Below, piece by piece: positions 14,169-61,711 of a DNA stretch of 64,000 nucleotides; the first letter of the stretch is position 1, and each line of letters opens with the position of its first letter. The notes under the pieces were generated by a model. That model saw nothing but the letters and a program-made list of their open reading frames with translations. It had not been told where the DNA came from and ran no database searches. A program made the translations under genes and the position numbers. Source of the DNA: Octopus vulgaris (taxonomy: Eukaryota); assembly GCA_951406725.2 (NCBI GenBank), contig OX597837.1, positions 20,956,001-21,020,000 on the forward strand. Direction: 5' to 3'.

Positions 14169-14217
<49 letters not shown>

Positions 14218-14786: not shown

Positions 14787-14886
<100 letters not shown>

Positions 14887-15936: not shown

Positions 15937-15994
<58 letters not shown>

Positions 15995-16222
15995 TCCCCC
16001 AACATCACTTGACAACCGATGCTGGTATGCTTACGTCCCCGTAACTTAGCGGTTCGGCAAAAGAGACCGATAGAGTAAGTACAAGGCTTACACAGAATAA
16101 GTCGTGGGGTCGATTTGCTCGACTAAAGGCGGCGCTTTAGCATGGCCGCAGTCAAAGGACTGAAACAAGTAAAAGAGAGAGGGAGAGATATTTACATGTT
16201 TATATATCATTGTATAAATAAT

Positions 16223-16386
<164 letters not shown>

Positions 16387-16411
16387 GTGTGTACTTTCCC
16401 GATACTTACAG

Positions 16412-16554
16412 GCTAAAAGAGATGCCATGGCAAACATCATAACTGACAAAACAGAAAAGCTGGTGGATCATAAAGACGAGTTGGAGAAGCTGACTGAGGT
16501 GGCAGAAAAGGAAATTCTTGAGGAGTTTGAAGATAGCCTGCAGAAACGTTCGAG
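16412..16554 (+). CDS. Gene A exon, [47 protein letters not shown]
   Basis: ttacag / gtagac, 143 nt, phase 0/2; same length as gene B exon 59668-59810. Confidence 0.85.
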
Positions 16555-16932
16555 GTAGACCACATTTTGGTTCTTTCTGCCCCCCCACACACATATATAT
16601 ATATTGTCTTTTACTTGTTTCAGTCATTTGACAGCGGCTATGCCGGGTTATGGGGCCGTAAACACGCCAACACCGGCTGTCAAGCGGTTCTGAGAGACAA
16701 ACAGAGACACAAATACACATACTTACATACATATATATATATATATATACTAAGTAATTAAGGGTTTAGCAACGATTTGCCTCACCACACACCGAATTTA
16801 GAAATAGCAGTCAAAGAGTTTGGGCTATTCTTTCTACTTAAAAGGGAGATCCCAGTAAAACCACAGCACTTAAAAGGCAAACAACGCAGGCAAAAGAGAA
16901 AGAAATGACGATAATCATTCTACATTAAGTCA

Positions 16933-17023
16933 CCTACGGACGTACGTTTCGGAATTAAGTCATAGGAAAGCATAAAAATTAAATAATTATGTCTTACCCA
17001 ACTATTTTCCTCTTCAGCGTAGG
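16933..17023 (-). ncRNA. Hammerhead ribozyme motif, inverted copy of 17559-17649
   Basis: reverse complement of the + strand copy. Confidence 0.85.
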
Positions 17024-17558
17024 ACTCTTCAATTATAAATAATTGCGTCTCAATCATTAATAATTGTGTATTAAATTTGAAGGCACTAGAAGACATCACC
17101 TCAACTCATGGTATCAGAGCGAGCGTAAGCCATTACCAGTACCACCAAATTCAAAGGGTGAATGAAAGTATGTCACCATCCCCCTTCCGCCAGCGTGCTG
17201 CCAAAATAAGATGCTACGGTTTTTTACTGGGATGAAATATAATTATCAATAATAATATAGGGTGAAATTAATTAATTTGGAATAATCATTAATTTCACCA
17301 AGTAGATTTCGGCATGTAAAAGCCCCATTCAAGGAAGGTTTAAGTAATACTAAGTAATTAAGGGTTTAGCAACGATTTGCCTCACCACAAACCGAATAGG
17401 GGATGGTGACATACTTTCATTCACCCTTTGAATTTGGTGGTACTGGTAATGGCTTACGCTCGCTCTGATACCATGAGTTGAGGTGATGTCTTCTGGTGCC
17501 TTCAAATTTAATACACAATTATTAATGATTGAGACGCAATTATTTATAATTGAAGAGT

Positions 17559-17649
17559 CCTACGCTGAAGAGGAAAATAGTTGGGTAAGACATAATTATT
17601 TAATTTTTATGCTTTCCTATGACTTAATTCCGAAACGTACGTCCGTAGG
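17559..17649 (+). ncRNA. Minimal type I hammerhead ribozyme motif
   Basis: cctacg CTGAAGA ggaa..ttcc GAAA cgtacg TC cgtagg: 6-bp stem I, intact core, palindromic stem III, GUC cleavage site. Confidence 0.85.
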
Positions 17650-17936
17650 TGACTTAATGTAGAATGATTATCGTCATTTCTTTCTCTTTTGCCTGCGTTG
17701 TTTGCCTTTTAAGTGCTGTGGTTTTACTGGGATCTCCCTTTTAAGTAGAAAGAATAGCCAAAACTCTTTGACTGCTAGTTCTAAATTCGGTGTGTGGTGA
17801 GGCAAATCGTTGCTAAACCCTTAATTACTTAGTATTACTTAAACCTTCCTTGAATGGGGCTTTTACATGCCGAAATCTACTTGGTGAAATTAATGATTAT
17901 TCCAAATTAATTAATTTCACCCTATATTATTACTGA

Positions 17937-18031
<95 letters not shown>

Positions 18032-18049
18032 CATACATACATACATACA

Positions 18050-18083
<34 letters not shown>

Positions 18084-18339
18084 CAGTGACGGACTGGCCA
18101 GGTTGCTAGTTTGCCCGATGGAGGGGCATATTAGTATGTAAGGGGCGCACCCCCTCAAATTTTTATTCACTCCTGGAAGAATGCATTAATTATTTTAACG
18201 TGGCTGTGTTTGTAGACAGTTAAAAAGAATACTTTTAACAAAAACAAAAATCCAATAATAGCATTGTAGTTGCGGGTTGGCACCCTTAGTTTTTCTGGCA
18301 ACCAATATTTTTAGACCCAGTCCGCCACTACATATATAT

Positions 18340-18980
18340 ATTCCTTCACCTGCACCTCCAGCAATATCATCTATTGCATCTCCTGCTCTCTCTGCCATTC
18401 CCTGTACATCGGACAAACGGGACACCGCTTGGCTGACCGGTTCGCGGACACCTCCGAGACATCTGCCTCGGCAATGACACCCCAGTCTCATGCCATTTCC
18501 GCTCCACCGGTCACGCCTTGCAACACCTGTCTGTGTTCGGATTGTCCTTGCACAGAGGCCATCCGGATTCCCGTTTGCGCCGTGAACAGGGATTAATCTT
18601 CTCTTTTCGCTCTTTTACGCCATTTGGGCTCAACTCTCCTCCCCTTTTCATCTAAACTCCTCCCCGACTCCTACTTCTCTTCACTCCTACATCTTTTCAC
18701 ACCTACTCTCTTTCCCTCTTCTTCCCTCTTTTCCCTCTAGTCTCTTTCCCTCTTCTCCCCTTCTCTCTTTCTCTCTTCTCTCTTTCTCTCTGCTCCCTCA
18801 CTCTCCTTCTCTCCTCTCTCCCCCTCCCTCCTCCTCCCCTCTCTTCTCTCCTCCTCTCTCTCCTCACATACCCACCTTCCCCTCCCCCATAAACCCACCC
18901 ACCCCTACTCCACTTTCCCTATCCTTCCCATCCCCTACCCTATCCCACACCCTCCCCCACATACCTCACCCCTACCCCCC
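18340..18980 (+). mobile_element. Penelope-like GIY-YIG endonuclease 3' fragment plus pyrimidine-rich tail
   Basis: NIIYCISCSLCHSLYIGQTGHRLADRFA...HF...RLRREQGLIF...PFGLN. Confidence 0.8.
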
Positions 18981-19003
18981 ACATACATACATACATACAT
19001 ATA

Positions 19004-20268
19004 AAGGTATTGGACAAAATAATGGAAACACCTTAAAATTTCAAAACAAATTTATTTTAATATGGGGTAGGACCGCCTTTGGCAGTAATTACAGCTTGAA
19101 TTCTACGAGGCATGGACTCATACAAAGTTTGAATTGTTTCCAAAGGAATTTTTGGCCATTCTTCAGCCAAAACAGTCTCCAGTTCTTGTCGTGATGATGG
19201 TGGAGGATATAGACTCCTTACTTTTTTTCTAAAACACACCATAAATGTTCAATAATATTGATATCTGGGCACTGTGCTGGCCAGATAAGATGTTCAACTT
19301 CACTAGAATGTTCCTCGTGCCATTCAGTAACAACTTTAGCTGTGTGAATTGGTGCATTATGACTCTGAAAGATTGCGTTTCCCTCCAGAAACAGTTCCGC
19401 ACCTATAGGCTGAATTTGATCAGATAAAATGCTTAAATAGTCTTGAATATTAATTCTGCCATGAAGGGAAACCATTGGACCGGCGGATTTCCAAGATATA
19501 GCCCCAACCCCAGATCATCACAGATCCTCATCCATGTTTAATAGTTGGAAGAAGGCAGTCTGGGTCAAATGCTTCTTTTGGCTGTCCCCACACGTATACT
19601 TGGCTGGTGGTCGGAAATAAGGTAAAGGATGACTTGTCCGAGAAAATAACATTCTTCCACTGCTCTCGTGACCAATTCTGTAGATTTTTACTCCACTCTA
19701 AACGCTTTGCAAGGTTTGCTTTTGAAAGTAGTGATTTTCTGATTGCAGCACTCCCGTGAAATCCGGCTTTGTGCAGTTCATGGCGGAGTTTTTGTGGTAA
19801 CTGGGTTCTCGAGGTGGTCATTAAGCTCTGCAGTAATTTTGAGAGCAGTATTTTTGTGATCCTTTCTAACAATTCGCATAAGAGTCCGACGGTCCCTATC
19901 TGAAAGTTATGGTTTTCTTCTGGAGTTTTGTTTCGACAAAGAGGTCTTTCCCTCTTTCTCAAAAGCTGTCATTACTTTTGAAACAGTACTTCTTGATATA
20001 CCAAACATTTCGGGTGTTTTCGTTACGCTAGTGCCTACCATACTAGCACCAACAATTTGACCTATTTGAAAGTCCAATAGATCTGTCGCTTTAATGAAAT
20101 TTAATTACCTTTTCCTGGTGATATCTGAAAAGAAACAGCAATTTTAGCAAAACATATTAAGCAACACTAATAATAAATCAAAAAAACATAAAAATAAACA
20201 AGCTTTTGGCGGTTTTAGATATATTTTAAAATTATGATGCTATGATGCTAGGTGTTTCCATTATTTTG

Positions 20269-20269
<1 letters not shown>
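19004..20269 (-). mobile_element. Tc1/mariner transposon relic
   Basis: TIRs acaaaataatggaaacacct / aggtgtttccattattttgt; WKNVIFSDKSSF, NAPIH, WPAQCPDINIIEHLW, SMPRRIQAVITAKGGPTPY, with frameshifts. Confidence 0.9.
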
Positions 20270-20312
<43 letters not shown>

Positions 20313-20333
20313 CATACATTATTTTGTGTATAT

Positions 20334-20376
<43 letters not shown>

Positions 20377-20448
20377 TATTATTTAAATGAATGCGACGCA
20401 TCCATTTCAAGTGTGTATATATTTTTTTATACACATATATATTATATG

Positions 20449-20539
<91 letters not shown>

Positions 20540-21418
20540 ATATATATGTATAAATACATGTTTGTGTGTGGCTTTGTAAAGAAAGAAATTGCTCTTTCCG
20601 GGGATGCCTTACATTCTAGCTTCTCCAGTTTATATATCTGTGAATTTACTGGAATGTGTCTCTCTGTGTTAGTATTAGTGTTTAATAGACACCAGCATTA
20701 TATAATTTGATTTGGATACAAAAATCAATAAATATATAAAGATATATATTGTATAGATTCTTCCTTCGGTAAGTAGGTAGACAGTAAACACAACATCTAG
20801 ACTCTAAAACCAATATTAATTACCTTGGGGTGTGGCCGGCTATCGTCAAACTTAAAAGTTTTTGCTATGTTTAGAAAAACACTCGAAAAACAAATAATCT
20901 TTCTCGCTCTATCTCTCTCTCTCACACACACACACACATACGAGAAAGACATACGACAATTATGCTTAAAGGTGAAAATGCTAACACACTCACACATAAA
21001 AAAACATGCTACTATCTTAGTCTATAATGAACACTCATTCGATTAGGATGTAAATTATAACACAATTGTTACTTGTAAAATAAATGAAGGTGGTTATTGA
21101 AACGATCGTAAGCGTTACGTAATTGACAGTTATGTAAATAAATTGATATTGCTGTATTCAAACTCTCCATTTTCTTTATATTATACAACTTATATATATA
21201 TATATATAATCATATCAAAGGGAAATGGAATTTAATTAAAATTAAAAACATTCAATTAAAATTTACATTTCCAGTGCTCTAACGCGTAAAAGAATTTTAG
21301 TCAAAAAGACTATATATTAGTCATACGATATAGTGTATATTTAAACACATAGAGAATCCACGTATAGGGATTCTACGCGCTAGAAAGAACAGCTAAGTTC
21401 TATGACCACAGGGTTGGA

Positions 21419-21493
21419 CCTGCTGAGGAAAATCAAACCTTGTGAGCTTCTTTATGACTCGCTAAAAGATGATTAGAAACCAATTGGTCCAGG
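21419..21493 (+). ncRNA. Minimal type I hammerhead ribozyme motif
   Basis: cctg CTGAGGA aaatca..tgatta GAAA ccaattgg TC cagg; the first stem II pair is mismatched. Confidence 0.7.
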
Positions 21494-21826
21494 AAACTAA
21501 ATGGTAAATGTTTTTCATTTCCAAATTTATTCCTGTCGAATACGCAACCGGTAAAAAGAACTTTCACCTAATTAAATACACTCTCCCTTACTTAAATTAT
21601 TTTGTCAGCATTTTCTTCATTTCCTTTATATATATATATATATATATAGGGAGTAGTATGCTTTTCTTTTGATTTCTAGATAGAAATAACACTTGCTGAC
21701 CAAAAACAAACAATTAATGAATAACAATTTTGTCACACACTGTAATCAAACTCATCTAAGTTTGGCAATAAATTTTTATACAAGTCATTTTTATGCGAGT
21801 TGTTAATTTACCCCTATTAATTACAG

Positions 21827-21988
21827 GAAATATATAAAGACTATCGAATCTCTAAGGAATAAAGTGTTGGAGGAAAAACATAAGAGATCGGAAATTGAAG
21901 AGGAATATCAATGCAAGATCCGTGAACTAAATATGATGACTATTGCACTTCAAGAAGAATTGCACAAGTTACATCGAAAACACCTTTT
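21827..21988 (+). CDS. Gene A exon, (R)KYIKTIESLRNKVLEEKHKRSEIEEEYQCKIRELNMMTIALQEELHKLHRKHL
   Basis: ttacag / gtcagt, 162 nt, phase 2/2; heptad pattern; aligns with the last coding exon of gene B. Confidence 0.8.
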
Positions 21989-22003
21989 GTCAGTAGCTGC
22001 TTT

Positions 22004-38036: not shown

Positions 38037-38095
38037 ATGACTACTGTAGATGATTACGCTCAAAATCTGTTGGCAAAGTCGGATCTTGGAAGCCT
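38037..38095 (+). CDS. Gene B (CEP63/DEUP1-like) first coding exon, MTTVDDYAQNLLAKSDLGS
   Basis: exon acceptor tttatag ends 37998, ATG at 38037, gtaagt donor at 38096, phase 2 fits the next exon. Confidence 0.75.
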
Positions 38096-39432: not shown

Positions 39433-39625
39433 AATCTTAAACGAAGGCATGTTGATGACGACCTGTAACGAAGAAGTACGAGAGTGTCTTCGCCAGCTCG
39501 ATATACTGGTTGATAATCGAGAGCTTGACCTGAAGAAACAACTTGCTGATGTTTATAAGCACTTTAAAGCAATAACGAGACAATGTCATCAACAGGCTAC
39601 AACTGTTAAGGAGAAATCTAAGCAG
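39433..39625 (+). CDS. CEP63: Gene B exon with CEP63/DEUP1 N-terminal motif, ILNEGMLMTTCNEEVRECLRQLDILVDNRELDLKKQL...KEKSKQ
   Basis: tttcag / gtctgt, 193 nt. LMTTCNEEVRECLRQLDILV resembles vertebrate CEP63 [20 protein letters not shown] and DEUP1 [16 protein letters not shown] (recalled). The symbol denotes family, not proven orthology. Confidence 0.8.
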
Positions 39626-43577: not shown

Positions 43578-43673
43578 GTAGGGACGCTTGAGGCTCATGT
43601 TCGTCGGATCACCACAGAGAAACTAGAAACAGACGAGATATACGAGAGAAATCTGTCTGGGTTCAGCTCAAAG
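43578..43673 (+). CDS. Gene B 96-nt exon copy 1, VGTLEAHVRRITTEKLETDEIYERNLSGFSSK
   Basis: aacag / gtaaga, phase 0/0; resembles the 32-aa CEP63/DEUP1 segment VG.L...Y...L. Confidence 0.85.
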
Positions 43674-43725
43674 GTAAGAAAATTTGATTGACTTCCTTTT
43701 TATATCCATTCCCATCAATCTTTCT

Positions 43726-43905
43726 ACGAGGGGTGCTGAAAAGTTTCTGGTTGCAAGCCCAAACTTCCGAGTTCTTTTACAGAACTTAGGAAAACTGACG
43801 ACCGCTGCAATAAGTGAGAGGGGAATATGTTGGATACAATTGTAATTAACTGATCCTCTTGTATTTTCTTTTACCCAAAGCCAGGAACTTTTCAGCACCC
43901 CTCAT
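43726..43905. mobile_element. Mariner-derived MITE; related copies at 10883-11221
   Basis: TIRs tacgaggggtgctgaaaagtt / aacttttcagcacccctcata with TA ends. Confidence 0.7.
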
Positions 43906-44666
43906 AGATGTCCAATAGCTAAGTAGATAAGCCACAGAGCTTATTTAATGATTTTAAAGCCACTTACCCAATGAGTATTTCTGCCAAATTTGGTGAAAAT
44001 CCGTTCGGCCGTTTTCCAGTAATTTTGCAAACACACAAAGACGAGTGATCATAATACCCAGCTTTCGCCTACGCGCGCAGTGTAATAATGGGCATTACAT
44101 GTTCTTCCTTTATTGGAGCAAATTTGGCTTAATGCTACTTGCATTAGTCATTATAGGCGCATTGTTGACAGGTTTACTTAGTTGGTCTATTGATCAATTG
44201 AGAAAAATTGAAAGACCTAAAAACCTGAATGCCATTTTCATCAGAGTCATTTCTGGTTATAATACTGGAGCTCTCAAATCTAAACAATATTGTTAGCTTC
44301 GTGTGCTTATAGAGTATCTTGCCCACGCTTGCTGATAAGTTGTTTTTGTCTCATTTTGTCTAAAAGTCGTAAGACACCTGTTGTTATCCTGTTTTTAACC
44401 ATTACTGTTTTCAATTTTGTTTTCGTTTCTTGTATTTATATTCGTCTCTGTTGCGTTTACATTCTTTCCTTCGACCAAGAAATCTAATGCCCACAGCTTA
44501 GTTTTTTCCTTGGGGCTGGCCGAGTTGGAGCAAATATCAGAATTAAACAGCCGAAATCTGCCATGATGATTCGGTTTCTGACTGAAGATTGAAGGCTTCG
44601 AATTACTTGTCTGTTTTCCGTGTTCGTCCCTTCGTGTATTTCACGTTCTTTATATATAAATTTTTA

Positions 44667-44714
<48 letters not shown>

Positions 44715-44757
44715 AACATACACACGCACATATATATATACATATATAAACACAAGT

Positions 44758-44827
<70 letters not shown>

Positions 44828-45426
44828 ATATGTGACAATTATTCGGTAGCCATGATAAAACTCCGAGTTTCGGATGCCGAGGTGGAAATCCACGCCGCCA
44901 TCTCTTCAGTTATCCGACCATCGGAAATATGCTTATATTTACAGATAAATTCCTCTATTTACATAATATCGAGGTCTCTTTCTTTCTGCTCAATACCACA
45001 GATTTGCTTGTCAGTTGTTTGACCTTAACCAGTTGAGCATGTCCCTTAGTGGCTGACGATGTGTGCATCTCTGATCATGAGCAGAAGTAGTGGGGCAGCA
45101 TCATAGCCATGTGTTGAAAGGAGTTATTTGGGGTTTGGATAATTCACCTCCGGAAACATGGGTATTTCGTTCAACATCCTTAAACAACCCTTATTCAGGG
45201 ATCTTTTGAGTGGGATGGGTTACTCGACTAGAATAAAATTCTAACTAGGCCCCACCTGCAAGGTCATGTGCTGTTTATCTTGATATAAGATCACCATGTC
45301 GCGCACATTTGGTTGTGATGTATGTGACTGGTGTACCCTTATCAGACGGGTAGTCATGATGGGTATACTGGGCTTTGTATATTTTACCCCAGTGTCACTT
45401 TGATGGCATGCACTGCTCTCTCACTC

Positions 45427-45466
<40 letters not shown>

Positions 45467-45498
45467 TCAAAAAAACCCAGGTTCAAAATTTCCCCCAA

Positions 45499-45544
45499 GA
45501 CACCTGAAGAAGCGTGGGGGGTATTTCAGCCGAAATGTTGCGTT
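45499..45544 (+). ncRNA. Degenerate minimal hammerhead motif
   Basis: gacac CTGAAGA agcg..cagcc GAAA tg TT gcgtt. Confidence 0.4.
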
Positions 45545-45655
45545 AGCAACAAACAAGATGAGGACAAATATCCGTCGAATGTAAATAATGTAAATAATGT
45601 ACATAATTCCTCATCTCTTAAATATAGAAACAATAATTAATTTTAACTTTAACAG

Positions 45656-45751
45656 GTAGCAACACTTCAAAATGAACTAGATCGCCTCACTGAAGCAAAA
45701 CGGTATGAAGAAGAGAAGAATGCGACCAACGTGTCAAATCTGAGGTCAACT
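45656..45751 (+). CDS. Gene B 96-nt exon copy 2, VATLQNELDRLTEAKRYEEEKNATNVSNLRST
   Basis: aacag / gtaagt, phase 0/0. Confidence 0.8.
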
Positions 45752-46538
45752 GTAAGTATATTATGGTTTAATTCTCATCAATCTTTCTAAAAGCCCATTT
45801 ACTGTGAGGGTAGATTACTGGGATGCAGACTACATTTGCATACCCGCAGCCCAAGTGACAACACCTGTTTTCGACTTTTTATTATTTGCCGCATTTCCAG
45901 TTGAAGCGAAGGACTGAACATTAGATTCTAAACTCTCATATTTACTTGTTGCTGGTCTTACAGAACATTACAACCGTCTTCAGATCATAGACTTTACTCT
46001 ATTGACTTTATGGTCGGGATTTTAAATCTGTGCATACCCCTTGTCTTGTACGCACACATAAGATATAAATGTGCTTTCCACGGACTATCATATGATGCAA
46101 AAAAAAAAGGGTATAATAAATAACTTGCAGTCCATTTTGGGGGACTTCACCTTTTCTGTCCCTGTTGTGAGTAAGAATGTTGAAATTGTTGACGCTTCAC
46201 TTATTTTGGTCGTGTGATTCATAGAAGCATTAGCTGCGAGTCTGAAGTCCTAAAAAATACTTGTATGAGCTGGTACAGGTGCATTGTTGTGTCTTATGCT
46301 TTTGTTAGCTTCTATCTAAAACTGATGTTGGTGACGTTGTAACAATTTTGTCCAGTACTCGATCAATATTCAACAAATAAGAGTTGAATTATCTAAATAC
46401 CTGGGTGAAATATGTATGGGGGTAAATCTGATACTCTGAGGTCTTTGAAGGTGATGCAACAGCATTTGCAGCATGGCTGCTGTGCAACGACTAAAACCAA
46501 TAAATTAACATAGAAACTTATTTCAACTGTTTTGACAG

Positions 46539-46634
46539 ATCACGTCACTTCACAAACAAATAGATAGGCTCGCAACTGAGAAAGAGAAAATAGATGAGAT
46601 GAATGTCACACAAATGTCTGACCTCCAGTCAAGA
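46539..46634 (+). CDS. Gene B 96-nt exon copy 3, ITSLHKQIDRLATEKEKIDEMNVTQMSDLQSR
   Basis: tgacag / gtaagt, phase 0/0. Confidence 0.8.
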
Positions 46635-46671
46635 GTAAGTAAATTCGGTAGAATTCTTTTCTTATCTAATA

Positions 46672-46981
46672 CTAGCAGTATCGCCCGGCGTTGCTCGGGT
46701 TTGTAAGGGAAATAACTATATAAGCATTTTTAGAGAGTTACGTCCCTTATATAAACCGAGCAAAAAAGGCATTAAAAAAAACGAAAAAATGATGGTAATT
46801 TTTTTTTTAAATCGTAGACTCATCGTAGACGCGCGCTAATACCCAGAAGGGCTCGATATGAATCACGACTATAAGATACCTGCTTTTGGTTAAACTGCAC
46901 CGCAAAATGTGGGAGTAGTTAGGAATCTAAATCGTAGGAGACAGACTCTCACACACATAACTTCAGTTTTATATATAAAGA
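46672..46981 (-). mobile_element. Non-autonomous Helitron
   Basis: minus strand: 5' TCTTTATATATAAAA, 3' hairpin cccgagcaacgccggg then CTAG, inserted between A and T. Confidence 0.8.
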
Positions 46982-47029
46982 TTACTATCATTGTTTATTG
47001 ATGCTCATTAAATGTGTGGGCTGGTTACT

Positions 47030-47890
47030 GACATTCATGCTGGTGTTCTTCAAAGAGACACTCTGGTTCTATGCCTGTTTATAATATAGCTGGATTATGT
47101 CCACTGACATCAACAAAGATTATAGATTTACACTTGAGAGAGTTAGAAGTAGAAAACAACCTGCAGTGAAAATATCAGATGCTGACTATGGAGATGATCT
47201 TAGTATTTTTGGAAATGATAAAGAACTAGCAAAGGAAATGTTGCACGCATGTATTGAAGACTGCAGCTGCGCAATTAGGACAATATGTCAATGCCAGTAA
47301 GACTGAATGTGATGTAACAGGGGATGTCTGTGCTCTGAATGGCACCAATCTGAGGGTGGTTTGTGACTTTAGTGACCTAGGAATCAAGATTGTCTCAATA
47401 GAAAAGGATGTCCAGGTAAGAGCTGTGAAAGTATGGAATGCCTCAGGCAGATTCAGGATTATATGGAGATCCCACATTCCTGACAACATGAAGAGGGGGT
47501 TTCTTCAAAGCAATTGTTGAATCTCTTTGGCTCTTCAGCATAGAAACCAAACAAGAGACTTGAAAAGAAGCTTGACAGTACATACACAAAATACTCTGTG
47601 CAGTTATTTTTCAATCTGTCTTGGCAGCAACATCCTACATAGCAACAACTGAAGGCAGTCCTCTTACCATCACCTCATTAATCAGAGAAAGAACGCATTA
47701 TGCAAGACACTGCTGGACAAGTAAAGATGAAATATCTTGCAGTCTCCTCTGGAAACCCACGCATGGGTAGTCGAAGAGGAACATACATCAATCAACTTGT
47801 GGAAGACACTGGAAATCAAGTTGAGCATATGAAGACTGCTGCGAAAGATCAAGACATCTGGTGTAGAAGGGTTGCATTGGTCTGAGTGAG
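47030..47890 (+). mobile_element. RTE-like LINE fragment
   Basis: GVLQRDTL..CLFII, ISDADYGDDLSIF; decayed. Confidence 0.65.
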
Positions 47891-48227
47891 ATGCTTCACC
47901 AGATAAACAGAGAAACTGGCGTTGTTTAAGCTGTATTTCTGTTTTATGTCATAACTATTTAATGAGCAATGTTCAGTAAAATATAGAGAGTGAAATAAGT
48001 ACTAGAGTTAAAAGCCACTGGTTTTTAACTGTTTTTTTTAATCTATGGACCCCCTTGATTACTATTTTTTTCTGGTGGACCCCCATAGCCATTAATTTTA
48101 TAGGTACTTCTTTCCTATTCTGTTCATCACACATTCGCTTGTGTAGGTTGAACTATATAAAGCATTTGAGAAAGAAACCTAGCTGTTTCTTGCAATAGAT
48201 ATACCTTAAGCAAAATATTTTGGTCAT

Positions 48228-48440
48228 ATTATGCGGAGAAAATCCCTGGAGAAGGACATCATGCTCGGAATGGTCAGTGGCAGGAGTGGAAGAGGCCGAC
48301 CAAGAACCATCTGGCTTGACACCATCAAGAGTGACACGTGAATGGCCATAGCCAATCTGAAAGAAGCGACCCAGGATAAAACTGACTGGAGGACACTGAT
48401 CCATCGAGTAACCGAGAATCAACTTCGACTGAGCGGATAG
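48228..48440 (+). mobile_element. RTE/BovB-like 3' end
   Basis: SLEKDIMLGMVSGRSGRGRPRTIWLDTIKSDT. Confidence 0.65.
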
Positions 48441-48662
48441 AGAGAGAGAAGCAAAATATTTTCATGAACCTTTAGAATAATACAAAAGTGAGTCCCCAAT
48501 TTACTGTTTTGCTTGTGTTGACCCCAACAAAATCTTATATGGACCACCACGGGTCAAATGGACTCCGGTTGAGAACCACTGGTCCAAACACTTGAATGTA
48601 GTTCTCCAACATAAAAGATCAATAAAAACAATAAAAGCAAGTAATTCAAATTTGTTTGGCAG

Positions 48663-48758
48663 ATAGCAACAATCCAGCTTAAAGTCGATCTGGCCGTTAC
48701 GGAAGAACAGCAAGCAGCAGACAGGTTTAAGGCGCAAGTATCTTTATTCAAGACAAAG
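48663..48758 (+). CDS. Gene B 96-nt exon copy 4, IATIQLKVDLAVTEEQQAADRFKAQVSLFKTK
   Basis: tggcag / gtaagt, phase 0/0. Confidence 0.8.
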
Positions 48759-50255: not shown

Positions 50256-50399
50256 TTTAAGCAATTGAACACGATGTATGAGCAACTTCGTCGAACATTC
50301 AAGCAGGAACTAATCCGGACAGAGCAAGGTGTCTCAACTGCTGATATCCGAATGGCAGAAAGGAAACAGCAAATTCTAGATCTTTCAGAAAAGTTAGAG
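50256..50399 (+). CDS. Gene B exon, FKQLNTMYEQLRRTFKQELIRTEQ...ILDLSEKLE
   Basis: tttcag / gtagtg, 144 nt; resembles DEUP1 FSKLTNNFEKLR / CEP63 LCILKRSYEKLQ (recalled). Confidence 0.85.
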
Positions 50400-50913: not shown

Positions 50914-51018
50914 GTATGCAATGACCGATTGAAAACTGTTCAAAAGAAAGAAGCCGCTCTCAAAAAAGAATTTAAGCTTCTGAAAGCTGAGTGTAAAGAA
51001 TTACAAAAGACACAAAAG
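50914..51018 (+). CDS. Gene B exon, VCNDRLKTVQKKEAALKKEFKLLKAECKELQKTQK
   Basis: tgtag / gtaaac, 105 nt, phase 0/0. Confidence 0.85.
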
Positions 51019-51973
51019 GTAAACATTTGCCTTCTCTGACAATCATCTCTTAACTATTTCCATTTGAATTTGCAGAACTCGTAAACAATTTGCTATTGTT
51101 ATTTTGGATATTTCAAGTTTTCCAATATTATCATTTTATATCTGAGACTGACAGGTAAAGAATTCGTTTCCCAAATACACAGTTCTGGGTTCAGTACCTA
51201 TTTCTTTATTACCCACAAAGGGCTAAACACAGAGGGGACAAACAAGGACAGACATAGGTATTAAGTCGATTACATCGACCCAGTGCGTAACTGGTACTTA
51301 ATTTATCGACCCCGAAAGGATGAAAGGCAAAGTCGACCTCGGCGGAATTTGAACTCACAATGTAACGCAGACGAAATACCGCTAAGCATTTCGCCCGGCG
51401 TGCTAACGTTTCTGCCAGCTCGCCGCCACATGACACCTTGGACAAGTGACTTCTACTATAGCCCCCAGCTGACCAATGCCTTGTAAATAGTATGTGTGTT
51501 TGTGCGTGCGCATGTGTGTGCATGCATGTGTATATGTGTGTGTGTGTGTTGTGTTTGTGTGTTTTTGTGCTTGCGTTTGTCCTCCATCACCGCTTGACGA
51601 CTGGTGTTGGTTTGTTTATGTCCATATAACTTAACAGTTCAGCTATAAAGAGACTGACAGAATTAGAACCAAGCTTCTGAGAGAAGTAAGTACTTTAGAT
51701 GATCCATTTAACTAAAAATTCTTCAAGGTGGTGTCCCAGCATGGCCACAGTATAATGACTTAAACAAGTAAAAGATAAAAAGATAAAATATAATAATGAA
51801 TAAATTTTCAACAGACACAGGTGTGGCTGTGTGGTAAGAAGTGTGCTTTCCAGCCACATGGTCCTGGGTTCAGTCCCACTACGTGGCACCTTGGGCAAGT
51901 GTCTTCTGCTATAGCCTCAGGGTAACCAAAGCCTTGCGAGTGGATTTGGTCGACGGAAAGTGAAAGAAGTCTA

Positions 51974-52010
<37 letters not shown>

Positions 52011-53347
52011 TTTGTCCCCTGGCACTGCTAAGCAACCAGTGTCGGGGTTTATTAGTTCGACTAAAATTATTCTAGGCAGTGCTCCAGTATGGCCACAGTT
52101 TAATGACTGAAACAAGAGAAAAGATAATATCAATTGGTCCTACTTGGGAATCAACCAAGGAGGTCTAAGGAAGGTTGCGTATAATAGGAGCTAATGGAGG
52201 AGATGTCTGGGGAATCAACCCCTACAACTTCTACAGGAATAGTGGGCGGAAAAGATCGATAAAGTAAAGCTACTTTTTCGAGTTATGCTTACTCATAAGG
52301 GCCGGCTTCCCGGTTTCCGTGGTATATATATTTCCCACCTGGATGGGATGCCAATCCATAGCAGGGTTACTCACTTTTGTCAGCTGAGTGGACTGGAGTA
52401 ACATGAAATGAAGTATTTTGCTCAAGAGCACGTGTCGCACGGTCCAGGAATCGAAACCACAATCTTACGATTATGCGTCCAACACCCTAATCACTAAGCC
52501 ACTTGCCTCTACAGATGGATTCAGGAATGGATATAAATAGAATTTGTGGAAAGATAACTGAAATATTCTTTTCTACTGTGCACAAAGCCCGAATTATTTT
52601 ATTTCTTTACTGCCGACAATGGGCTACACACAGAGAGGACAAACAAAAAAAGACAAACGGATTAAGTCGATTATATCGACCCCAGTGCGTAACGTTTCTG
52701 CCAGCTTGCCGCCAGTCCGAATTAAGTAACTGTTGCGTACTGGGGTCGATCTAATTGATTCCCAGTACGCAACTGGTACTTAATTTATCACCCCTGATAG
52801 GATGAAAGGCAAAGTCGATCTCGGCGGAGTTTGAACTCAGAACGTAACGGCGGACGAAATACCTATTTCTTTACTACCCACAAGGGGCTAAACACAGAAC
52901 GGACAAACAAGGACAGACGAACGGATTAAGTCGATTATATCGACCCCAGTGCGTAACTGGTGCTTGTTTAATTGACCCCGAAAGGATGAAAGGCAAAGTC
53001 GACTTCGGCGGAATTTGAACTCAGAACGTAACGGCAAACGAAATAAGCATTTCGCCCGGCGTGCTAACGATTCTGCCAGCTCGCCGCCTTAAGAAAACTA
53101 AAATATTATGAGACAATGGGATACTGTGTTGGACTGAAATATATTGGGAGATAAATGAAATATATTATTTTGTATGATATTTATAGGTGCAGGAATGACT
53201 GCGTGGTAAGAAGTTTGCCTCTCAACTACATGGTTCTGGGTTCAATTCCACTTTGTGGTACCTTGGGCAAATGTCTTCTACTATAGTCTCAGACCAATCA
53301 AAGCCTTGAATGTCGATTTGATAGGCAGAAACTAAAAGAGGCTCGTC

Positions 53348-53398
<51 letters not shown>

Positions 53399-53744
53399 TA
53401 ATCCAAACATGAAAACACCAAGAGAAAACACAACAACGCGAGGACGTGGAATAAATATAGTATTATTGGACGCTCAGGAAAGAAGGGAAGAAGGAGGGTT
53501 AGGGTGAGTTCACGAAAAAAACAAAAGTCGAAGACAGGTGATGTACAAAAGAAACAGATGCATTAGTATAACGCTCAGGAATATATATATCAGTCATTAG
53601 AAAAGTGCTCTCACGTGGCTAAGAGTTATTTTGACTCTTATTTCTAGCAATGCTGGGGCTTACTAGCACTCTCCATCACTTTAGTGACATTTAAATTTGT
53701 TGCCTTTCGGTTCTAAATTGCGAATAGCCACCTCTATTATTTAT

Positions 53745-53962
53745 ATATGTATGTATATTATGTATGTATGCATGTATGTATGTATGTATGTATGTATGTA
53801 TGTATGTATGTATGCATATTATGTATGTATGTATGTATGCATGTATGTATGTATGTATGTGTGTATGTATGTATGTATGCATGCATGCATATATGTATGT
53901 ATGTATATTATGTATGTATGTATGTATGTATGTATGTTTATATGTATGTATGTATGTATGTT

Positions 53963-53994
<32 letters not shown>

Positions 53995-54065
53995 TCTTTG
54001 TATGTATGTATGTATGTATGTATGTATGTATGTATGTATGTATGTATGTGAAATATGTTGTGAAA

Positions 54066-54108
<43 letters not shown>

Positions 54109-54112
54109 ATAG
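53745..54112. repeat. (TATG)n plus (AAAT)n microsatellites
   Basis: direct reading. Confidence 0.95.
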
Positions 54113-54143
54113 ATAAAATTAATATTGTAAAATGGGATTTCAG

Positions 54144-54268
54144 ATTTTGGTAACCACCGAGGAAAAACTTAGGCAACGTATGCAAGAATGTGAGCAAGTA
54201 CAGGACAACGCGGAAATGGAAATTTTGAAGCTTACGCGCGATGAGGAGGATCACGCTGCAAAACTTGA
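54144..54268 (+). CDS. Gene B exon, ILVTTEEKLRQRMQECEQVQDNAEMEILKLTRDEEDHAAKL
   Basis: tttcag / gtaagt, 125 nt, phase 0/2. Confidence 0.85.
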
Positions 54269-54653
54269 GTAAGTGTAAACATTGTTGTACTGATAACTGA
54301 AGCACAAGAAGTGGGGATTTGATAATTTGTGCATGTGCTCATATTCAGCTTTCCGTTAAATAAATCTGATGTTAAATGTTCAAAAATTTTGCTTCTGTTT
54401 GTAATACAGGCAGCCAGCCTAATATCACATCACGATTAATAAAAGAGTTCCACCCACCTCACAATATCGATCCAGTTGGATTTTGAAGTTCTCAATCTTT
54501 CGAAATACCACGAAATATCAAAGACTTGAAAACAGAATATCTGTCGCACTCAATATGGTTTCAGAAACCATTAATTAAACTTTAAACTGATATTTCGTTT
54601 TTGGATTTGGTTTGCAAGATTCTTTATATGAGTGCGTGTGTTGGGGCATATTC

Positions 54654-54880
54654 TGTTGTGTCTGGGGAGAGTCATTTTCTTTTTGTGCCTTATAATGTAA
54701 CATACTCACCGGTAAAATTTCCACTTTTTTCCAATTTTCCAATTTTAATGACTATTGAAAAGGTTACAAGACACAACGAAAATTTTAAGAAAATAAAAAT
54801 AAGAAAAAAGTGGAAATTTTACTGGTGAGTGTGTTACATTATAAGGCACAAAAATAAAATGACTCTCTCCAGACACAACA
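54654..54880. repeat. Inverted repeat with ~77-nt arms
   Basis: tgttgtgtctggggagagtcatttt...ccactttttt vs aaaaaagtgg...aaaatgactctctccagacacaaca. Confidence 0.85.
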
Positions 54881-54899
54881 GTTTAAACTGATAATCTTT

Positions 54900-55520
54900 T
54901 AGCATTACAATGAATCCTTTGGCTGTGCTAATTCTGAGACTCTCCAATCATTAGAATTTTCCAATATCGTTGAAAATAGCTCAGAAAACTCAGTAAATTT
55001 GTCAGACAAAAACGGATACTTGTCGAGATGAATAATTCCAATGCGTTTTAGGTGACAGTGGAAATCGACTTCCGTTGATTTCATCCAGTAATTCTATTCA
55101 AGTCATCAATTTTGAGAAAAAAGTTGAAATTCCTTTTACAGTTTGAAAAAAAATTCGATATTCACGAGTAGTTGAAACCGATTGAGAGAATACCAGATTA
55201 AGTGAACGTGCATAACAATGTACAACTATGACAGTCAGGCCAAGAATTTCCTTTACTCTCGCTTGCACTTCATTCAAATGCCCAGTCTTCATGTTCGCTC
55301 TATCATTAGTTTGTGCAATGAATTTTTGGTCACAATTGAATTCATAAACAAATTTTTGAACTTCTGTCAGCGATTCAGCTTTTCTATCTTTAGTGGCATT
55401 GATGTATCCCAAAACCCTTTATCGAGGCTTTTTTGATCTCCTCAACAAATTGCAAAACGCGTAACAATTGGGGTTTCATCCAAAGACCCATAGTCTCATC
55501 AAACATAACAGCAACAAATA
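54900..55520 (-). mobile_element. hAT transposase relic
   Basis: AQTND.ANMKTGHLNEVQARVKE...VHCYARSLNLV motif. Confidence 0.7.
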
Positions 55521-55680
55521 ATGTACAATGAGGATAGTAAAAATTATCAATAATTAATTTTATATTACACATAAATTATCTATCCAGGAAAAAAAAATAA
55601 AGGGGTGCAGACTACGCGTTGCCCTTCAGCCCAGCACCACTCGTTCCTTCATATATTATGAAATTTTATATTTAATTATA

Positions 55681-55861
55681 GGCGCAGGAGTGGCTGTGTG
55701 GTCAGTAGCTTGCTTACCAACCACATGGTTCCGGGTTCAGTCCCACTGCGTGGCATCTTGGGCAAGTGTCTTCTGCTATAGCCTCGGGCCGACCAAAGCC
55801 TTGTGAGTGGATTTGGTAGACGGAAACTGAAAGAAGCCCGTCGTATATATGTATATATATA

Positions 55862-55959
<98 letters not shown>

Positions 55960-56160
55960 TGTGTGTGTGTGTCTGTGTTTGTCCCCCTGGCATTGCTTGA
56001 CAACCGATACCGTCACTTAGCGGTTCGGCAAAAGAGACCGATAGAATAAGTACTGGGCTTACAAAAGAATAAGTCCCGGGATCGATTTGCTCGACTAAAG
56101 GCGGTGCTCCAGCATGACCGCAGTCAAATGACTGAAACAAGTAAAAGAGTAAAAGAGTAA
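55681..56160 (+). mobile_element. SINE family 2 (CORE-like, internal (TA)n/(GT)n); other copies ~3586-3950, 6117-6728, 13875-14170, 15763-16180, 22495-23108(-), 25765-26170(-), 39690-40130, 48990-49430(-), 51820-52125, 56829-57230
   Basis: tRNA-like head ggcgcaggagtggctgtgtggtaag...ggttcagtccc, accttgggcaagt core, 3' end gactgaaacaagtaaaagag. Confidence 0.85.
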
Positions 56161-56188
56161 TTATGTTGGAGCTGTGGTTTCATTGCAG

Positions 56189-56327
56189 ATCCCTCAAACA
56201 GGAAATTGGAGAACTTCAGAATCTTGTGGCTGATATAAAGAACAAAATACAAGTCAAAGATTCTGTAATTGAGCCGTTACTACAGAAACTTGCACCATAT
56301 CGAGGAAGTGGGATGGAGAAAATGCAG
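56189..56327 (+). CDS. Gene B exon, (E)SLKQEIGELQNLVADIKNKIQVKDSVIEPLLQKLAPYRGSGMEKMQ
   Basis: ttgcag / gtgagt, 139 nt, phase 2/0. Confidence 0.85.
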
Positions 56328-56994
56328 GTGAGTAGCGAATAGATGTCTGAGCATTTGGGATGAGTGATGAGAACACACAGCATCTGTGACAAGGGATGCG
56401 CAGGATCTGTGACAAGGGATGCATTTTGAAACCTAGGCTTGTTTTCATAACAAGGGATCTCTTTCTCTCTTCTTCTTCTTCTTCTTCTTCTTCTTCTTCT
56501 TCTTCTTCTTCTTCTTCTTCTTCTTCTTCTTCTTCTTCTCCTCCTCCTCCCTTTTCTTCTTCTTCTTCCTCTTCCTCCTTCTCCGCCTTCTCCCCCCTCC
56601 TTTCCTCCTCTTCATTTCCTCCTCTTCATTTCCTCCTCTTCCTCCTCTTCATCTCTTCCTTATTCTCCTCATTCTCCTCCTCCTTCACCTCCTTCTTCTC
56701 TTCCACTCCTTTCTTCCTTCCCTCTTCCCCCGTCCCCGTCTGTGTGTCCCAACAATATCGTCTGACTCATGCATGGAAAATGGGACATTGACACAATGGT
56801 ATGCATATATCATACATATATATAGACATAGGAGTGGCTGTGTGGTAAGTAGCTTGCTTACCAACCACATGGTTCCGGGTTGAATCCCACTGCGTGGCAC
56901 CTTGGGCAAGTGGGCAAGTGCTTTCTACTATAGCCCTGGGTTGATCAAAGCCTTGTGAGTAGACGGAAACTGGAAGAAGCCTGTTGTATATATA

Positions 56995-57036
<42 letters not shown>

Positions 57037-57487
57037 TGTGTGTGTCTGTGTCTGTGTTTGTCCTCAGCATCGCTTGACAACCGATGGTGGTGTGTTTACG
57101 TCCCCGTAACTTAGCGGTTAGGCAAAAGAGACCGATAGAACAAAGAATAAGTCCTGGGGTCGATGTGCTCGACTAAAGGCGGTGCTCCAGCATGGCCACA
57201 GTCAAATGACTGAAACAAGTAAAAGAGAGAGAGAGAGAGTATTAAAATTAAATAAGGGTCGAAATTAACAAAGCGAAACCTTAAGATATGGGAATTAACT
57301 GCTACGTTTATTTCTTTCCACTTGTCTCGTATACATTTAGCGTCTTGCTAATTTGAGAACACAATTTTCGCGGTAGGACGGTTAGACGTCTATTTTTAGC
57401 ATACAAAGAATCCACTTAGTGGTCTCTCCTCTTATTTATATTTAAATATGCATTAAAATATATACGATAATAGATTTTTAAAAATGA

Positions 57488-57871
57488 CTAGCAGTATCGC
57501 CCGGCGTTGCTCGGGTTTGTAAGAGAAATAACTATATAAGCATTTTTAGAGATGTAAAGTATAATAGCCATCTCAATATGGCTAACCACAAAGGCGGGGG
57601 TCACTGTAGCTTTTTACGTTCTGAGATTTAATAATACATTTTTAGAGAGTTACTTCCCTTATATAATGCATTAAAAATGGGAAAAAATGATGGTAAATTT
57701 TTTTTTAAATCGTAGACTCATCGTAGACGCGCGCTAATACCCCGAAGGGCTCGATATGAATCACGACTATAAGATACCCGCTTTTGGTTATACTGCACCG
57801 CAAAATGTGGGAGTAGTTAGGAATCTAAATCGTAGGAGACAGACACACAACTTCAGTTTTATATATAAAGA
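57488..57871 (-). mobile_element. Non-autonomous Helitron, same family
   Basis: same termini and body as 46672-46981, with an extra internal segment. Confidence 0.8.
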
Positions 57872-58075
57872 TTTTTCATGTTAACGTCATTTTTCGAGTT
57901 AAACCACACATCTTGAAACCAATTTCTTACATAAGCTGAGGAATGCCTGCTCTTCTGAATCTCTGAGTTTGGGCGTATGGCTTTCCATGAGAAACCATGA
58001 TAAAAATTACCAAAATGAAGAGCTAAAAAAAGAAGAAAAAAACCTGTTGAGTTTATGTTTTTCTTCTTATTACAG

Positions 58076-58198
58076 GCAATTAGTGAGAAAATAAATTCTC
58101 TACAGAGTCAAAACAACCAGCTAACGCAAGACCTGGCAAAATACAAAGATCAGACTAATGAATATTTAAAACTGGAAACGCAGATAAAGGAATTACAA
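58076..58198 (+). CDS. Gene B exon, AISEKINSLQSQNNQLTQDLAKYKDQTNEYLKLETQIKELQ
   Basis: ttacag / gtaagt, 123 nt, phase 0/0. Confidence 0.85.
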
Positions 58199-58330
58199 GT
58201 AAGTAAATACTTCCAAAAGTCTTGATCCCTGATGTATGTATGAATGAATATATGGACATATATTATAGTTATATATGTGTGTGTATATGTGTGTGTTTGT
58301 GTGTCTCTCTCTCTCTTTCTCACATTCTCT

Positions 58331-58367
<37 letters not shown>

Positions 58368-58431
58368 CTGTATTCATATATATATAAATAATAAGCATCA
58401 AATGAAATAAAAACAGAACACAAAGGATGTC

Positions 58432-58523
58432 GCGGTACACGTGTTTCAAGCTTTATAAAACAACCTATTCTTACATCAATGTATAATCGACATAACAGAT
58501 GGTTTAAAGCTCTCTTCAGCCGC
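58432..58523 (-). ncRNA. Hammerhead ribozyme motif, inverted copy of 58794-58885
   Basis: reverse-complement arm of the 58397-58921 inverted repeat. Confidence 0.8.
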
Positions 58524-58793
58524 ATGCAATTGCCATACCAAAGACTTACATCACATTATGAAATTATGAAAAATCCGAAAATGTACATTTGGTATTATCT
58601 ATAATGGTGGGTATATTGAGTTTCACTGAGAAAGTATGTTTGTAAATCTTCATAATCAAATAGGTGTGTAGGATACCATTGGACTTCAAAAATCCGTCCA
58701 TACTCTATCATCAGTCAACATAGACTCTATGTACATTTTCAGAGTTTTCATAATTTCATAAAATGATGTAAGTCTTTGGTATGGCAATTGCAT

Positions 58794-58885
58794 GCGGCTG
58801 AAGAGAGCTTTAAACCATCTGTTATGTCGATTGTACATTGATGTAAGAATAGGGTGTTTTATAAAGCTTGAAACACGTGTACCGC
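58794..58885 (+). ncRNA. Minimal type I hammerhead ribozyme motif
   Basis: gcgg CTGAAGA gagcttta..taaagctt GAAA cacgtg TA ccgc. Confidence 0.85.
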
Positions 58886-59667
58886 GACATCCTTTGTGTT
58901 CTGTTTTTTATTTCATTTGATACATATACCCTCTCACCTCTGCTACTAGCTGGCATATACAGGTGCTTACACTTATCAAGTATTCACCCTGAATTTATAT
59001 AAATAAGGGCAGAAATTGATATTAATCAATTAAAACCAGTGGCTTAGCATATTTAACGATGATGATGATTGTCCTCCTCATCATCAGCTTTCTTTTCCCC
59101 AACATAACTGACATGTTCATAAATTATCTTTAGAACTTCCTCATTTCCAAACTTCAAACTGTAAAGGTAATTTACACTCCATCCCCCAAACCGGTTTCGT
59201 GGGGAAAAACCTATATATGTACAAAAAACTAAAAATGGAATAAGAACGTAATAGACGACAATAAAAACATAGACAATACAAAGACGCACAGGAAAAACAA
59301 GGACAGATCATTCATGGCTTTCTATTCATCAGAAAAGTTTCCAAATTATCATAACAGTTTCAGCCTGTTACACTTGAGACTTCATAATTGGTTGGCCATA
59401 AAAATCTAAGCTAAGAGCATTAAATTTTTAGAAGAAAGCAAGCGAATGTGTAATGACAACACAGACAAAGAACAAAAACGAGAAAACGGAGAAAATGTTA
59501 CACGATTACAAATACAAACAACAAGAGAGTAACAACAGGTGTCTTTCGACTAATAAAGACGAATCAAGTTGAGCTGGTTTGTGGAGGGAAAGCCCTGAGG
59601 CACAAACATAGATGAAAGTCAGGAGACAGAAAAATAAGAGATGCTATTCATTCTTCTCTTTCGTTAG

Positions 59668-59810
59668 AAGGAGCAAAAATCTTTGAAGAAAAAACAGTCC
59701 AGCCAGGAACATGAATGGGAGAAGCAAGATAACGAAATGGAGATGGAAGTAACTAATTTCAGGAAAAATATGATTAAAAAGCTTAAAAATGTATGGAAAG
59801 AAAAGGCAAG
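59668..59810 (+). CDS. Gene B exon, KEQKSLKKKQSSQEHEWEKQDNEMEMEVTNFRKNMIKKLKNVWKEKA
   Basis: cgttag / gtgagt, 143 nt, phase 0/2; NAGNAG acceptor (tag AAG GAG). Confidence 0.85.
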
Positions 59811-61560: not shown

Positions 61561-61711
61561 GGAGTATGACGAGCAAATAGCGGAGATAGAAGCAAATCTG
61601 AAAGAAGAAGAGCAGAAAACTAAAAACAAGATCACATGTTTCGAAGAAAAGATAGGAGCAACACATTGCCTGCATGACAATCTTTATGACCAAATAAAAG
61701 CATTTCAGTAA
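61561..61711 (+). CDS. Gene B last coding exon, (R)EYDEQIAEIEANLKEEEQKTKNKITCFEEKIGATHCLHDNLYDQIKAFQ*
   Basis: ttgacag acceptor; in-frame TAA at 61709-61711; possible donor (aag/gtagct) at 61721. Total CDS 1566 nt, 521 aa. Confidence 0.8.

What the first reader, a model, noticed from the sequence alone, without database searches (positions are those of the whole stretch)
43578..48758. Four tandem homologous 96-nt symmetric exons in gene B
Four consecutive phase 0/0 exons, each exactly 32 codons, share the pattern (V/I)xx(L/I)xxx(V/L/I)...S.(L/F): VGTLEAHVRR..., VATLQNELDR..., ITSLHKQIDR..., IATIQLKVDL.... In vertebrate CEP63/DEUP1 (recalled sequences) a single 32-aa segment occupies this position. 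The exon therefore appears to have quadruplicated. It either lengthens the N-terminal coiled coil by ~96 aa (a possible molecular-ruler change) or forms a cassette/mutually exclusive exon cluster that keeps frame in any combination.
Basis: partly seen in the sequence, partly recalled or inferred. Interest (0 to 1): 0.75.

Follow-up and report, generated by a model that had tools for sequence, protein, structure and literature searches.

The report
Quadrupled exon in octopus CEP63 copies
Two neighbouring, fast-changing octopus copies of the centriole gene CEP63 each carry four versions of an exon that the standard gene has once, which likely lengthens the rod-shaped front of the protein by about 96 amino acids, while the tail that probably docks its usual partner is not detectable; whether all four are spliced in together is untested.

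Summary
Confirmed. The four 96-nt, phase 0/0 AG…GT exons are homologous: all 6 pairs p≤4e-4, 0 of 381 coiled-coil control windows reach that score, and the intron flanks are homologous too. The window is Octopus vulgaris. Gene B is one of four CEP63-like genes on this contig. Neighbour gene A also has four copies. Gene C, the conserved gene D, Argonauta and the bivalve Solemya have one. All four B copies are intact in O. bimaculoides. A and B lack the conserved C-terminal exon, which weakens the 'ruler' idea. I found no device for mutually exclusive splicing: long introns, short AG-free zones, no frameshift, no docking site above control. Three RefSeq models string copies together; two O. vulgaris models keep one, but have other errors. 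No spliced RNA was obtained. Best reading: co-spliced lengthening of the self-association coiled coil in derived paralogs (about 0.6). No paper or earlier scan note was found.

The parts
38037..38095 (+). Gene B first coding exon (ATG, 59 nt)
   Evidence: Weak match to O. bimaculoides model start; same length as gene D exon; GTAAGT donor
39433..39625 (+). Gene B exon E0 (193 nt), CEP63 N-terminal motif; homologous to the human Cep57-binding fragment
   Evidence: profile of the four paralog E0 exons hits PDB 9I7Q chain B at E 8.9e-6
43578..43673 (+). Repeat exon B1 (96 nt, phase 0/0)
   Evidence: 25 of 32 aa identical in O. bimaculoides
43674..43725 (+). Intron flank after B1; homologous flank follows all ten copies, the single-copy genes included
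   Evidence: Alignment; count
45656..45751 (+). Repeat exon B2; the only copy in O. vulgaris model CAI9740080.1
   Evidence: 23 of 32 aa in O. bimaculoides
46539..46634 (+). Repeat exon B3; closest of the four to the gene D exon (62 of 96 nt)
   Evidence: 21 of 32 aa in O. bimaculoides; in O. sinensis model
48663..48758 (+). Repeat exon B4
   Evidence: 27 of 32 aa in O. bimaculoides; in O. sinensis model
50256..50399 (+). Gene B exon E5 (144 nt); continues the hydrophobic register of the repeat
50914..59810 (+). Gene B exons 50914-51018, 54144-54268, 56189-56327, 58076-58198, 59668-59810 (coiled coil, colinear with gene D)
51638..51715 (+). Extra exon used as last exon in the O. bimaculoides model; also has a GTAAGT donor after 51685
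61561..61711 (+). Gene B last identified exon: homolog of gene D's 86-nt exon, read through the old donor to a stop; no C-terminal CEP63 exon found after it
2387..22000 (+). Gene A 3' exons (2387-2530, 5519-5623, 8136-8260, 11522-11657, 13034-13156, 16412-16554, 21827 onward). Its four repeat exons lie 1.9-5.4 kb upstream of the window (G000:C24:20950552, 20951045, 20952876, 20953983)

Best explanation
Gene B is a fast-evolving duplicate of octopus CEP63 in which one 96-nt exon is present in four intact tandem copies, and these are likely spliced in together, which would add 96 residues of predicted coiled coil right behind the N-terminal motif. Shown: four homologous exons in B and four in neighbour A, one in C, D and the outgroups; an open 13-exon frame of 521 aa with all copies in; a hydrophobic period of 3.555 residues (32/9) across the four; no detectable C-terminal CEP63 exon in A or B. 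Inferred: (1) the exon was copied with its flanks by unequal crossing-over, probably once, in the ancestor of A and B; (2) it was tolerated because the exon keeps both reading frame and helix register; (3) default splicing includes all copies; (4) the product is a longer self-associating rod (about +14 nm at the textbook 0.15 nm per residue) that may still anchor through the Cep57-binding end but would not bridge to Cep152. It would then be a specialised structural scaffold, not a retuned centriole-duplication ruler.
For: Homology and copy numbers. Selection to stay coding: copies are about 0.9 synonymous changes per site apart, yet all 8 in A and B keep AG, GT and an open frame. Simulated neutral survival is 0.4-9% per copy, and nhmmer found no decayed extra copy in 264 kb. 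Each B copy is 21-27 of 32 aa identical in O. bimaculoides, like flanking exons (43 of 64, 34 of 49). Co-inclusion: RefSeq models join B1-B2-B3-B4 (XP_014783407.1), A1-A2-A3 (XP_014784391.1) and B3-B4-E5 (XP_036368983.1). No exclusion device: introns 787-2028 nt, AG-free zones 19-26 nt, donors GTAAG(A/T); no frameshift on co-inclusion; best shared docking duplex -18.7 against -18.8 kcal/mol for control exons. A review passage says most tandem duplicated exons join the constitutive isoform (PMC8373072). Register. C-terminal loss. In human Cep63, 1-87 binds Cep57 (PMC13720213), 1-220 homomerizes and 490-541 binds Cep152 (PMC6411776).
Against: No spliced read was seen, so co-inclusion rests on gene models whose RNA support I could not inspect. 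Both O. vulgaris models keep one copy only (B2 in CAI9740080.1, A1 in CAI9740079.1), although these models also fuse B to C and drop other exons. dN/dS among B copies is high (0.73 pooled), so constraint is weak. Each copy still resembles the single ancestral exon along both halves, as interchangeable exons would. The tree of ten copies is a star and rejects neither one origin nor two. The docking search covered 270 of 539 windows and only pairings within 160 nt of the exons. That the missing octopus C-terminal exon equals the human Cep152-binding helix is inferred from position; PDB searches found no match. Gene B scores below the Pfam cut-off (22-26 against 33 bits).
Confidence: 0.6

Rival explanations
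1. The copies are regulated cassette exons: transcripts carry 1 to 4 copies, giving rods of stepwise different length.
For: Any subset keeps frame and hydrophobic register. Public models differ in copy use: 1 in O. vulgaris, 4 in O. bimaculoides, at least 2 in O. sinensis. An extra alternative exon exists at 51638.
Against: Donors are at or near consensus in all four. The one-copy models are demonstrably error-prone. No skip junction was observed.
Confidence: 0.24
2. Dscam-like mutually exclusive cluster: exactly one of four copies per transcript, swapping the surface next to the Cep57-binding end.
For: Equal length and phase; each copy resembles the single ancestral exon; conserved intron flank; O. 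vulgaris models with one copy each.
Against: No steric, frame or splice-type incompatibility. No docking site above control. The conserved flank is also present in single-copy genes C and D, so it is inherited and not specific to a choice mechanism. Three RefSeq models join neighbouring copies.
Confidence: 0.1
3. Gene B, or three of its four copies, is a recently silenced relic and the repeats do nothing.
For: High dN/dS; truncated C-terminus; neighbour gene C has a frameshift in its last exon.
Against: Intact 521-aa frame with canonical splice sites; all four copies intact in two species that differ at 16-34% of residues per copy; low simulated neutral survival.
Confidence: 0.06

Closest known systems
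CEP63 (Pfam PF17045; human Cep63 in the Cep57-Cep63-Cep152 platform; PMC6411776, PMC10336005, PMC13720213, passages read)
   Same: Homologous N-terminal motif (profile hit to PDB 9I7Q). Exon sizes 59, 193, 96, 144, 105, 125, 139, 123 nt shared with gene D, which passes the Pfam cut-off. Almost all helix in a predicted model.
   Different: Four copies of the 32-aa segment; long branches; below the Pfam cut-off; acidic linker and conserved C-terminal exon not detectable.
DEUP1/CCDC67, the vertebrate CEP63 paralog (PMC6210342 passages; PMC7938805 abstract passage)
   Same: A diverged duplicate of CEP63; Deup1 self-assembly relies on its N-terminal coiled coils, the region expanded here.
   Different: Independent duplication in octopods, nested among cephalopod sequences (weak support). 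Deup1 keeps C-terminal CEP152 binding, whereas A and B appear to lack that exon. No expression or localisation data here.
Tandem duplicated exon substitutions and Dscam1-type mutually exclusive clusters (PMC8373072, passages read)
   Same: Adjacent homologous exons of equal length and phase.
   Different: No exclusion mechanism found. The copies are young, limited to paralogs and fast-evolving, and public models include them in series.

Membership tests
CEP63/DEUP1 family | Pfam PF17045 above gathering cut-off | tested here: not met
   Gene B models 22.1 and 26.3 bits against 33; gene D exon 33.5 bits passes
CEP63/DEUP1 family | Descent from CEP63 (homologous N-terminal motif, colinear exons) | tested here: met
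   B E0 49% identical to D E0 at E 4e-14; equal exon sizes; profile hit to human Cep63 1-87 at E 8.9e-6; P0002 alone gives no PDB hit
CEP63/DEUP1 family | C-terminal helix that binds CEP152 | tested here: not met
   Profile of the conserved C-terminus hits only D and C in 264 kb; B's last exon matches D's 86-nt exon (p 0.0005), not D's last exon (p 0.84). Equivalence to human 490-541 is inferred
CEP63/DEUP1 family | Centriole or deuterosome localisation; binding to CEP57 | not testable with these tools
   Needs cell biology
Tandem exon duplication | Adjacent homologous exons with homologous flanks where the ancestor has one | tested here: met
Mutually exclusive exon cluster | Only one copy per transcript | tested here: inconclusive
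   No spliced contigs obtained; gene models disagree
Mutually exclusive exon cluster | Steric block, frame/NMD coupling or mixed splice-site types | tested here: not met
   Introns 787-2028 nt, AG-free zones 19-26 nt, all GT-AG, 96 nt symmetric
Mutually exclusive exon cluster | Shared docking/selector RNA pairing | tested here: inconclusive
   Nothing above control in 270 of 539 windows; no cross-species intron DNA for covariation

The most novel reading that the evidence does not exclude
Octopus independently evolved a cluster of DEUP1-like CEP63 paralogs. In two of them a frame- and register-neutral 32-residue coiled-coil module was quadrupled and is spliced variably, so one gene makes a ladder of scaffold rods (about 5 nm steps) or swaps the surface beside the Cep57-binding end, for a specialised centriole, basal body or sperm structure.
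Probability: 0.25. Interest if true: 0.72.

Novelty: new variant of a known kind. Interest (0 to 1): 0.42.

Why it matters
CEP63 duplication is described for vertebrates, where it gave DEUP1 (PMC6210342). Here is a separate expansion to four genes in Octopus, with no paper found. Two copies gained three extra coiled-coil modules in the self-association region and apparently lost the partner-binding tail. It is a natural experiment on how the length and valency of a centriolar coiled coil can change. It also shows that current O. vulgaris models of these genes are wrong. The process itself, tandem exon duplication in fast-evolving paralogs, is ordinary, and function and splicing are unmeasured, which caps the score.

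Tried and rejected
RNA: the run search listed no holder on record as RNA. I laid 7 of the 21 RNA-guessed runs: 4 on 45470-49190 and 3 on 45632-46660. None gave an exon-exon joint. Cover was almost all on transposon pieces, plus one unspliced 153-nt contig over the end of B4. This blank is no evidence on expression, and B1, E0 and E5 were never laid. One DNA-sized run of another species label (X20) covered B3 with 3 differences in 198 nt. Trees: the protein tree of repeats pairs orthologous copies between species but leaves deeper forks open (O. bimaculoides A slices were off by one there, identities redone). The DNA tree is a star, and none of 9 AU tests rejected a grouping; order of duplication unresolved. 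A half-by-half test for junction-specific constraint showed no pattern. The repeat HMM did not hit Solemya at domain E 0.05; its single segment rests on the ungapped alignment. Genome-wide search with one 32-aa exon was too insensitive to count copies. PDB searches with C-terminal pieces and the ESM Atlas (best 0.80) were uninformative. No Argonauta or squid ortholog of A, B or C appeared among 5 and 9 hits; this is weak evidence only. I first read B's last exon as a diverged C-terminal motif and rejected that. A3 was left out of dN/dS (extra codon). No paper mentions the four LOC and two XP ids searched. The bioRxiv tissue atlas with O. bimaculoides has no 'cep63' in its main text; its supplements, unseen, may hold expression data. 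No complex prediction was run.
Full report
Observation. The four exons are at 43578-43673, 45656-45751, 46539-46634 and 48663-48758 on the + strand. Each is 96 nt, stop-free in phase 0 and bounded by AG and GTAAG(A/T). The six pairs share 6-11 of 32 residues and 48-56 of 96 nt, with shuffle p at most 4e-4. As a coiled-coil control, none of 381 other 32-residue windows of the model P0001 scored 25 or more against any copy, while true pairs score 25-56. The first 50 nt of intron after each donor also align: 14.6 of 24 matches against 10.1 for unrelated donors. So exon and flanks were copied together.

The gene. The window is G000:C24:20956001-21020000. Its exon 39433-39625 matches an Octopus vulgaris model at 100% and an O. 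bimaculoides model at 67%. With all four copies in, gene B is a 13-exon open frame of 521 aa with canonical splice sites. It scores under the Pfam CEP63 cut-off. Genome searches found three more genes with the same N-terminal exon on C24: A just upstream, C just downstream and D 18.7 Mb away. D passes the cut-off, is 544 aa and intact, and is 74% identical in that exon to Argonauta CEP63-like. B and D share exon sizes 59, 193, 96, 144, 105, 125, 139 and 123 nt. A profile of the four N-terminal exons hits human Cep63 1-87 in PDB 9I7Q. B is therefore a diverged CEP63 paralog and D the likely ortholog.

Copy number. A scan of all open AG…GT windows of 90-102 nt (736 candidates in the A-B-C region, 361 at D) returned ten distinct exons: four in A (96, 96, 99, 96 nt), four in B, one in C, one in D. 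Protein and DNA profiles built from these ten found nothing further in 264 kb; the next best E was 1.7. Argonauta, an unnamed Logan protein (P0008) and the bivalve Solemya velum have a single 32-residue segment between the flanking exons. All four B copies are closest to the D exon in nucleotide identity (54-62 of 96). A, B and C each have an O. bimaculoides ortholog, so the cluster and the repeats predate that split. Synonymous distance among B copies (0.94) is like that among the paralogs' N-terminal exons (0.55-1.17), so gene and exon duplications are of similar age. Whether the exon quadrupled once or twice is not resolved by trees. One origin is favoured by equal copy number and by a second shared change: A and B both read through the donor that ends D's 86-nt exon. 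That support is modest: 29 of 66 nt shared past the donor, against 19-20 with D.

Are the copies used? They look maintained. All eight in A and B keep frame and splice dinucleotides, where simulated neutral decay leaves 0.4-9% per copy intact. Each B copy is 21-27 of 32 residues identical in O. bimaculoides, like the flanking exons. Constraint is loose (dN/dS 0.73 among B copies). I obtained no spliced RNA. Gene models disagree. RefSeq joins B1-B4 and A1-A3 in O. bimaculoides and B3-B4-E5 in O. sinensis. The two O. vulgaris models keep one copy each, but one fuses B to C and both omit other clear exons. I could not see the RNA support for any model.

Splicing mechanism. Known routes to mutual exclusion (from my own knowledge: steric block, distant branch point, frame/NMD, mixed spliceosomes, docking-selector pairing) were checked. 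Introns between B copies are 1982, 787 and 2028 nt, AG-free zones are 19-26 nt and donors are near consensus. Co-inclusion keeps frame. The best shared docking duplex (-18.7 kcal/mol) did not beat control exons (-18.8) in 270 of 539 windows tested. The conserved flank also follows the single exons of C and D, so it is inherited. A review passage states that most tandem duplicated exons become constitutive (PMC8373072). I put co-inclusion at 0.6, variable cassettes at 0.24, strict mutual exclusion at 0.1 and relic at 0.06.

Protein consequence. Over 13 units, hydrophobic residues recur at positions 1, 4, 8, 11, 22, 26 and 29, and the next exon continues at 4, 8, 11 and 15. The four B copies in series have a hydrophobic period of 3.555, which is 32/9, with no proline. 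That fits a continuous coiled coil with one stutter per unit (inference), so any copy number keeps register. A single-sequence AlphaFold model of the four-copy O. bimaculoides protein is nearly all helix with one break inside copy 2 (mean pLDDT 76, pTM 0.46). In human Cep63 the matching segment starts near residue 76. That is at the end of the Cep57-binding fragment 1-87 (PMC13720213, section 10 read) and inside the homomerizing 1-220 region; residues 490-541 bind Cep152 (PMC6411776, passages). Cep63 lies radially, N-terminus inward (PMC10336005, passages), which is the basis of the ruler idea. But the conserved C-terminal exon is found only in D and, frameshifted, in C. B's last exon is the homolog of an earlier D exon. 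Without that tail, whose equivalence to the human helix is inferred from position and not shown, B would not span Cep57 to Cep152. A longer self-associating scaffold is the better guess; Deup1 self-assembly also relies on N-terminal coiled coils (PMC7938805, abstract passage). Tissue and organelle are unknown. Gonad-restricted use is a guess from fast evolution only.

Novelty. CEP63 duplication to DEUP1 is described for vertebrates (PMC6210342, passages). Searches found no paper with cep63 and cephalopod, none with these gene ids, and none on octopus CEP63 among the rows listed. The scan's own index had no related note. The process is known; this instance, an Octopus CEP63 cluster with a quadrupled register-neutral exon and a lost tail, appears undescribed. 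Verdict: real, new variant of a known kind, interest 0.42.

Noticed in passing
G000:C24:21044590-21044726 (L009; gene C last exon): Reading frame shifts by one base relative to gene D inside the conserved C-terminal motif; gene C also lacks homologs of two preceding exons. Pseudogenising change or assembly error.
   Followed up: partly
window 61561-61711 and G000:C24:21028211: O. vulgaris model CAI9740080.1 fuses gene B to gene C through a donor at 61707 and omits three repeat exons and one gene C exon.
   Followed up: yes
window 2387-2530 and 21827-22110: Gene A exons missing from model CAI9740079.1; the last one runs on into a CT microsatellite before a stop, so A's true end is unclear.
   Followed up: partly
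window 51638-51715: Extra exon, 81% identical in O. bimaculoides, where it is the last exon of the model; it also has a consensus donor after 48 nt, so it may be an alternative last or cassette exon.
   Followed up: partly
G000:C24:20952876-20952974 (L006): Copy A3 has 33 codons in both O. vulgaris and O. bimaculoides, the only copy that breaks the 32-residue register.
   Followed up: no
G000:C24:39670210-39684963 (L013-L015): Gene D, the intact 544-aa CEP63 ortholog of O. vulgaris, did not appear among the hits of my protein searches; it may be unannotated or just missed.
   Followed up: no
P0003 (O. sinensis XP_036368983.1): The model starts inside copy B2 in a shifted frame before joining B3, which suggests an indel in that assembly or a lesion in B2.
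   Followed up: no
window 45470-45630, 46660-47000, 48220-48470, 48970-49190: High-copy repeat pieces in the introns between the copies draw thousands of contigs; they are insertions that differ between introns.
   Followed up: no
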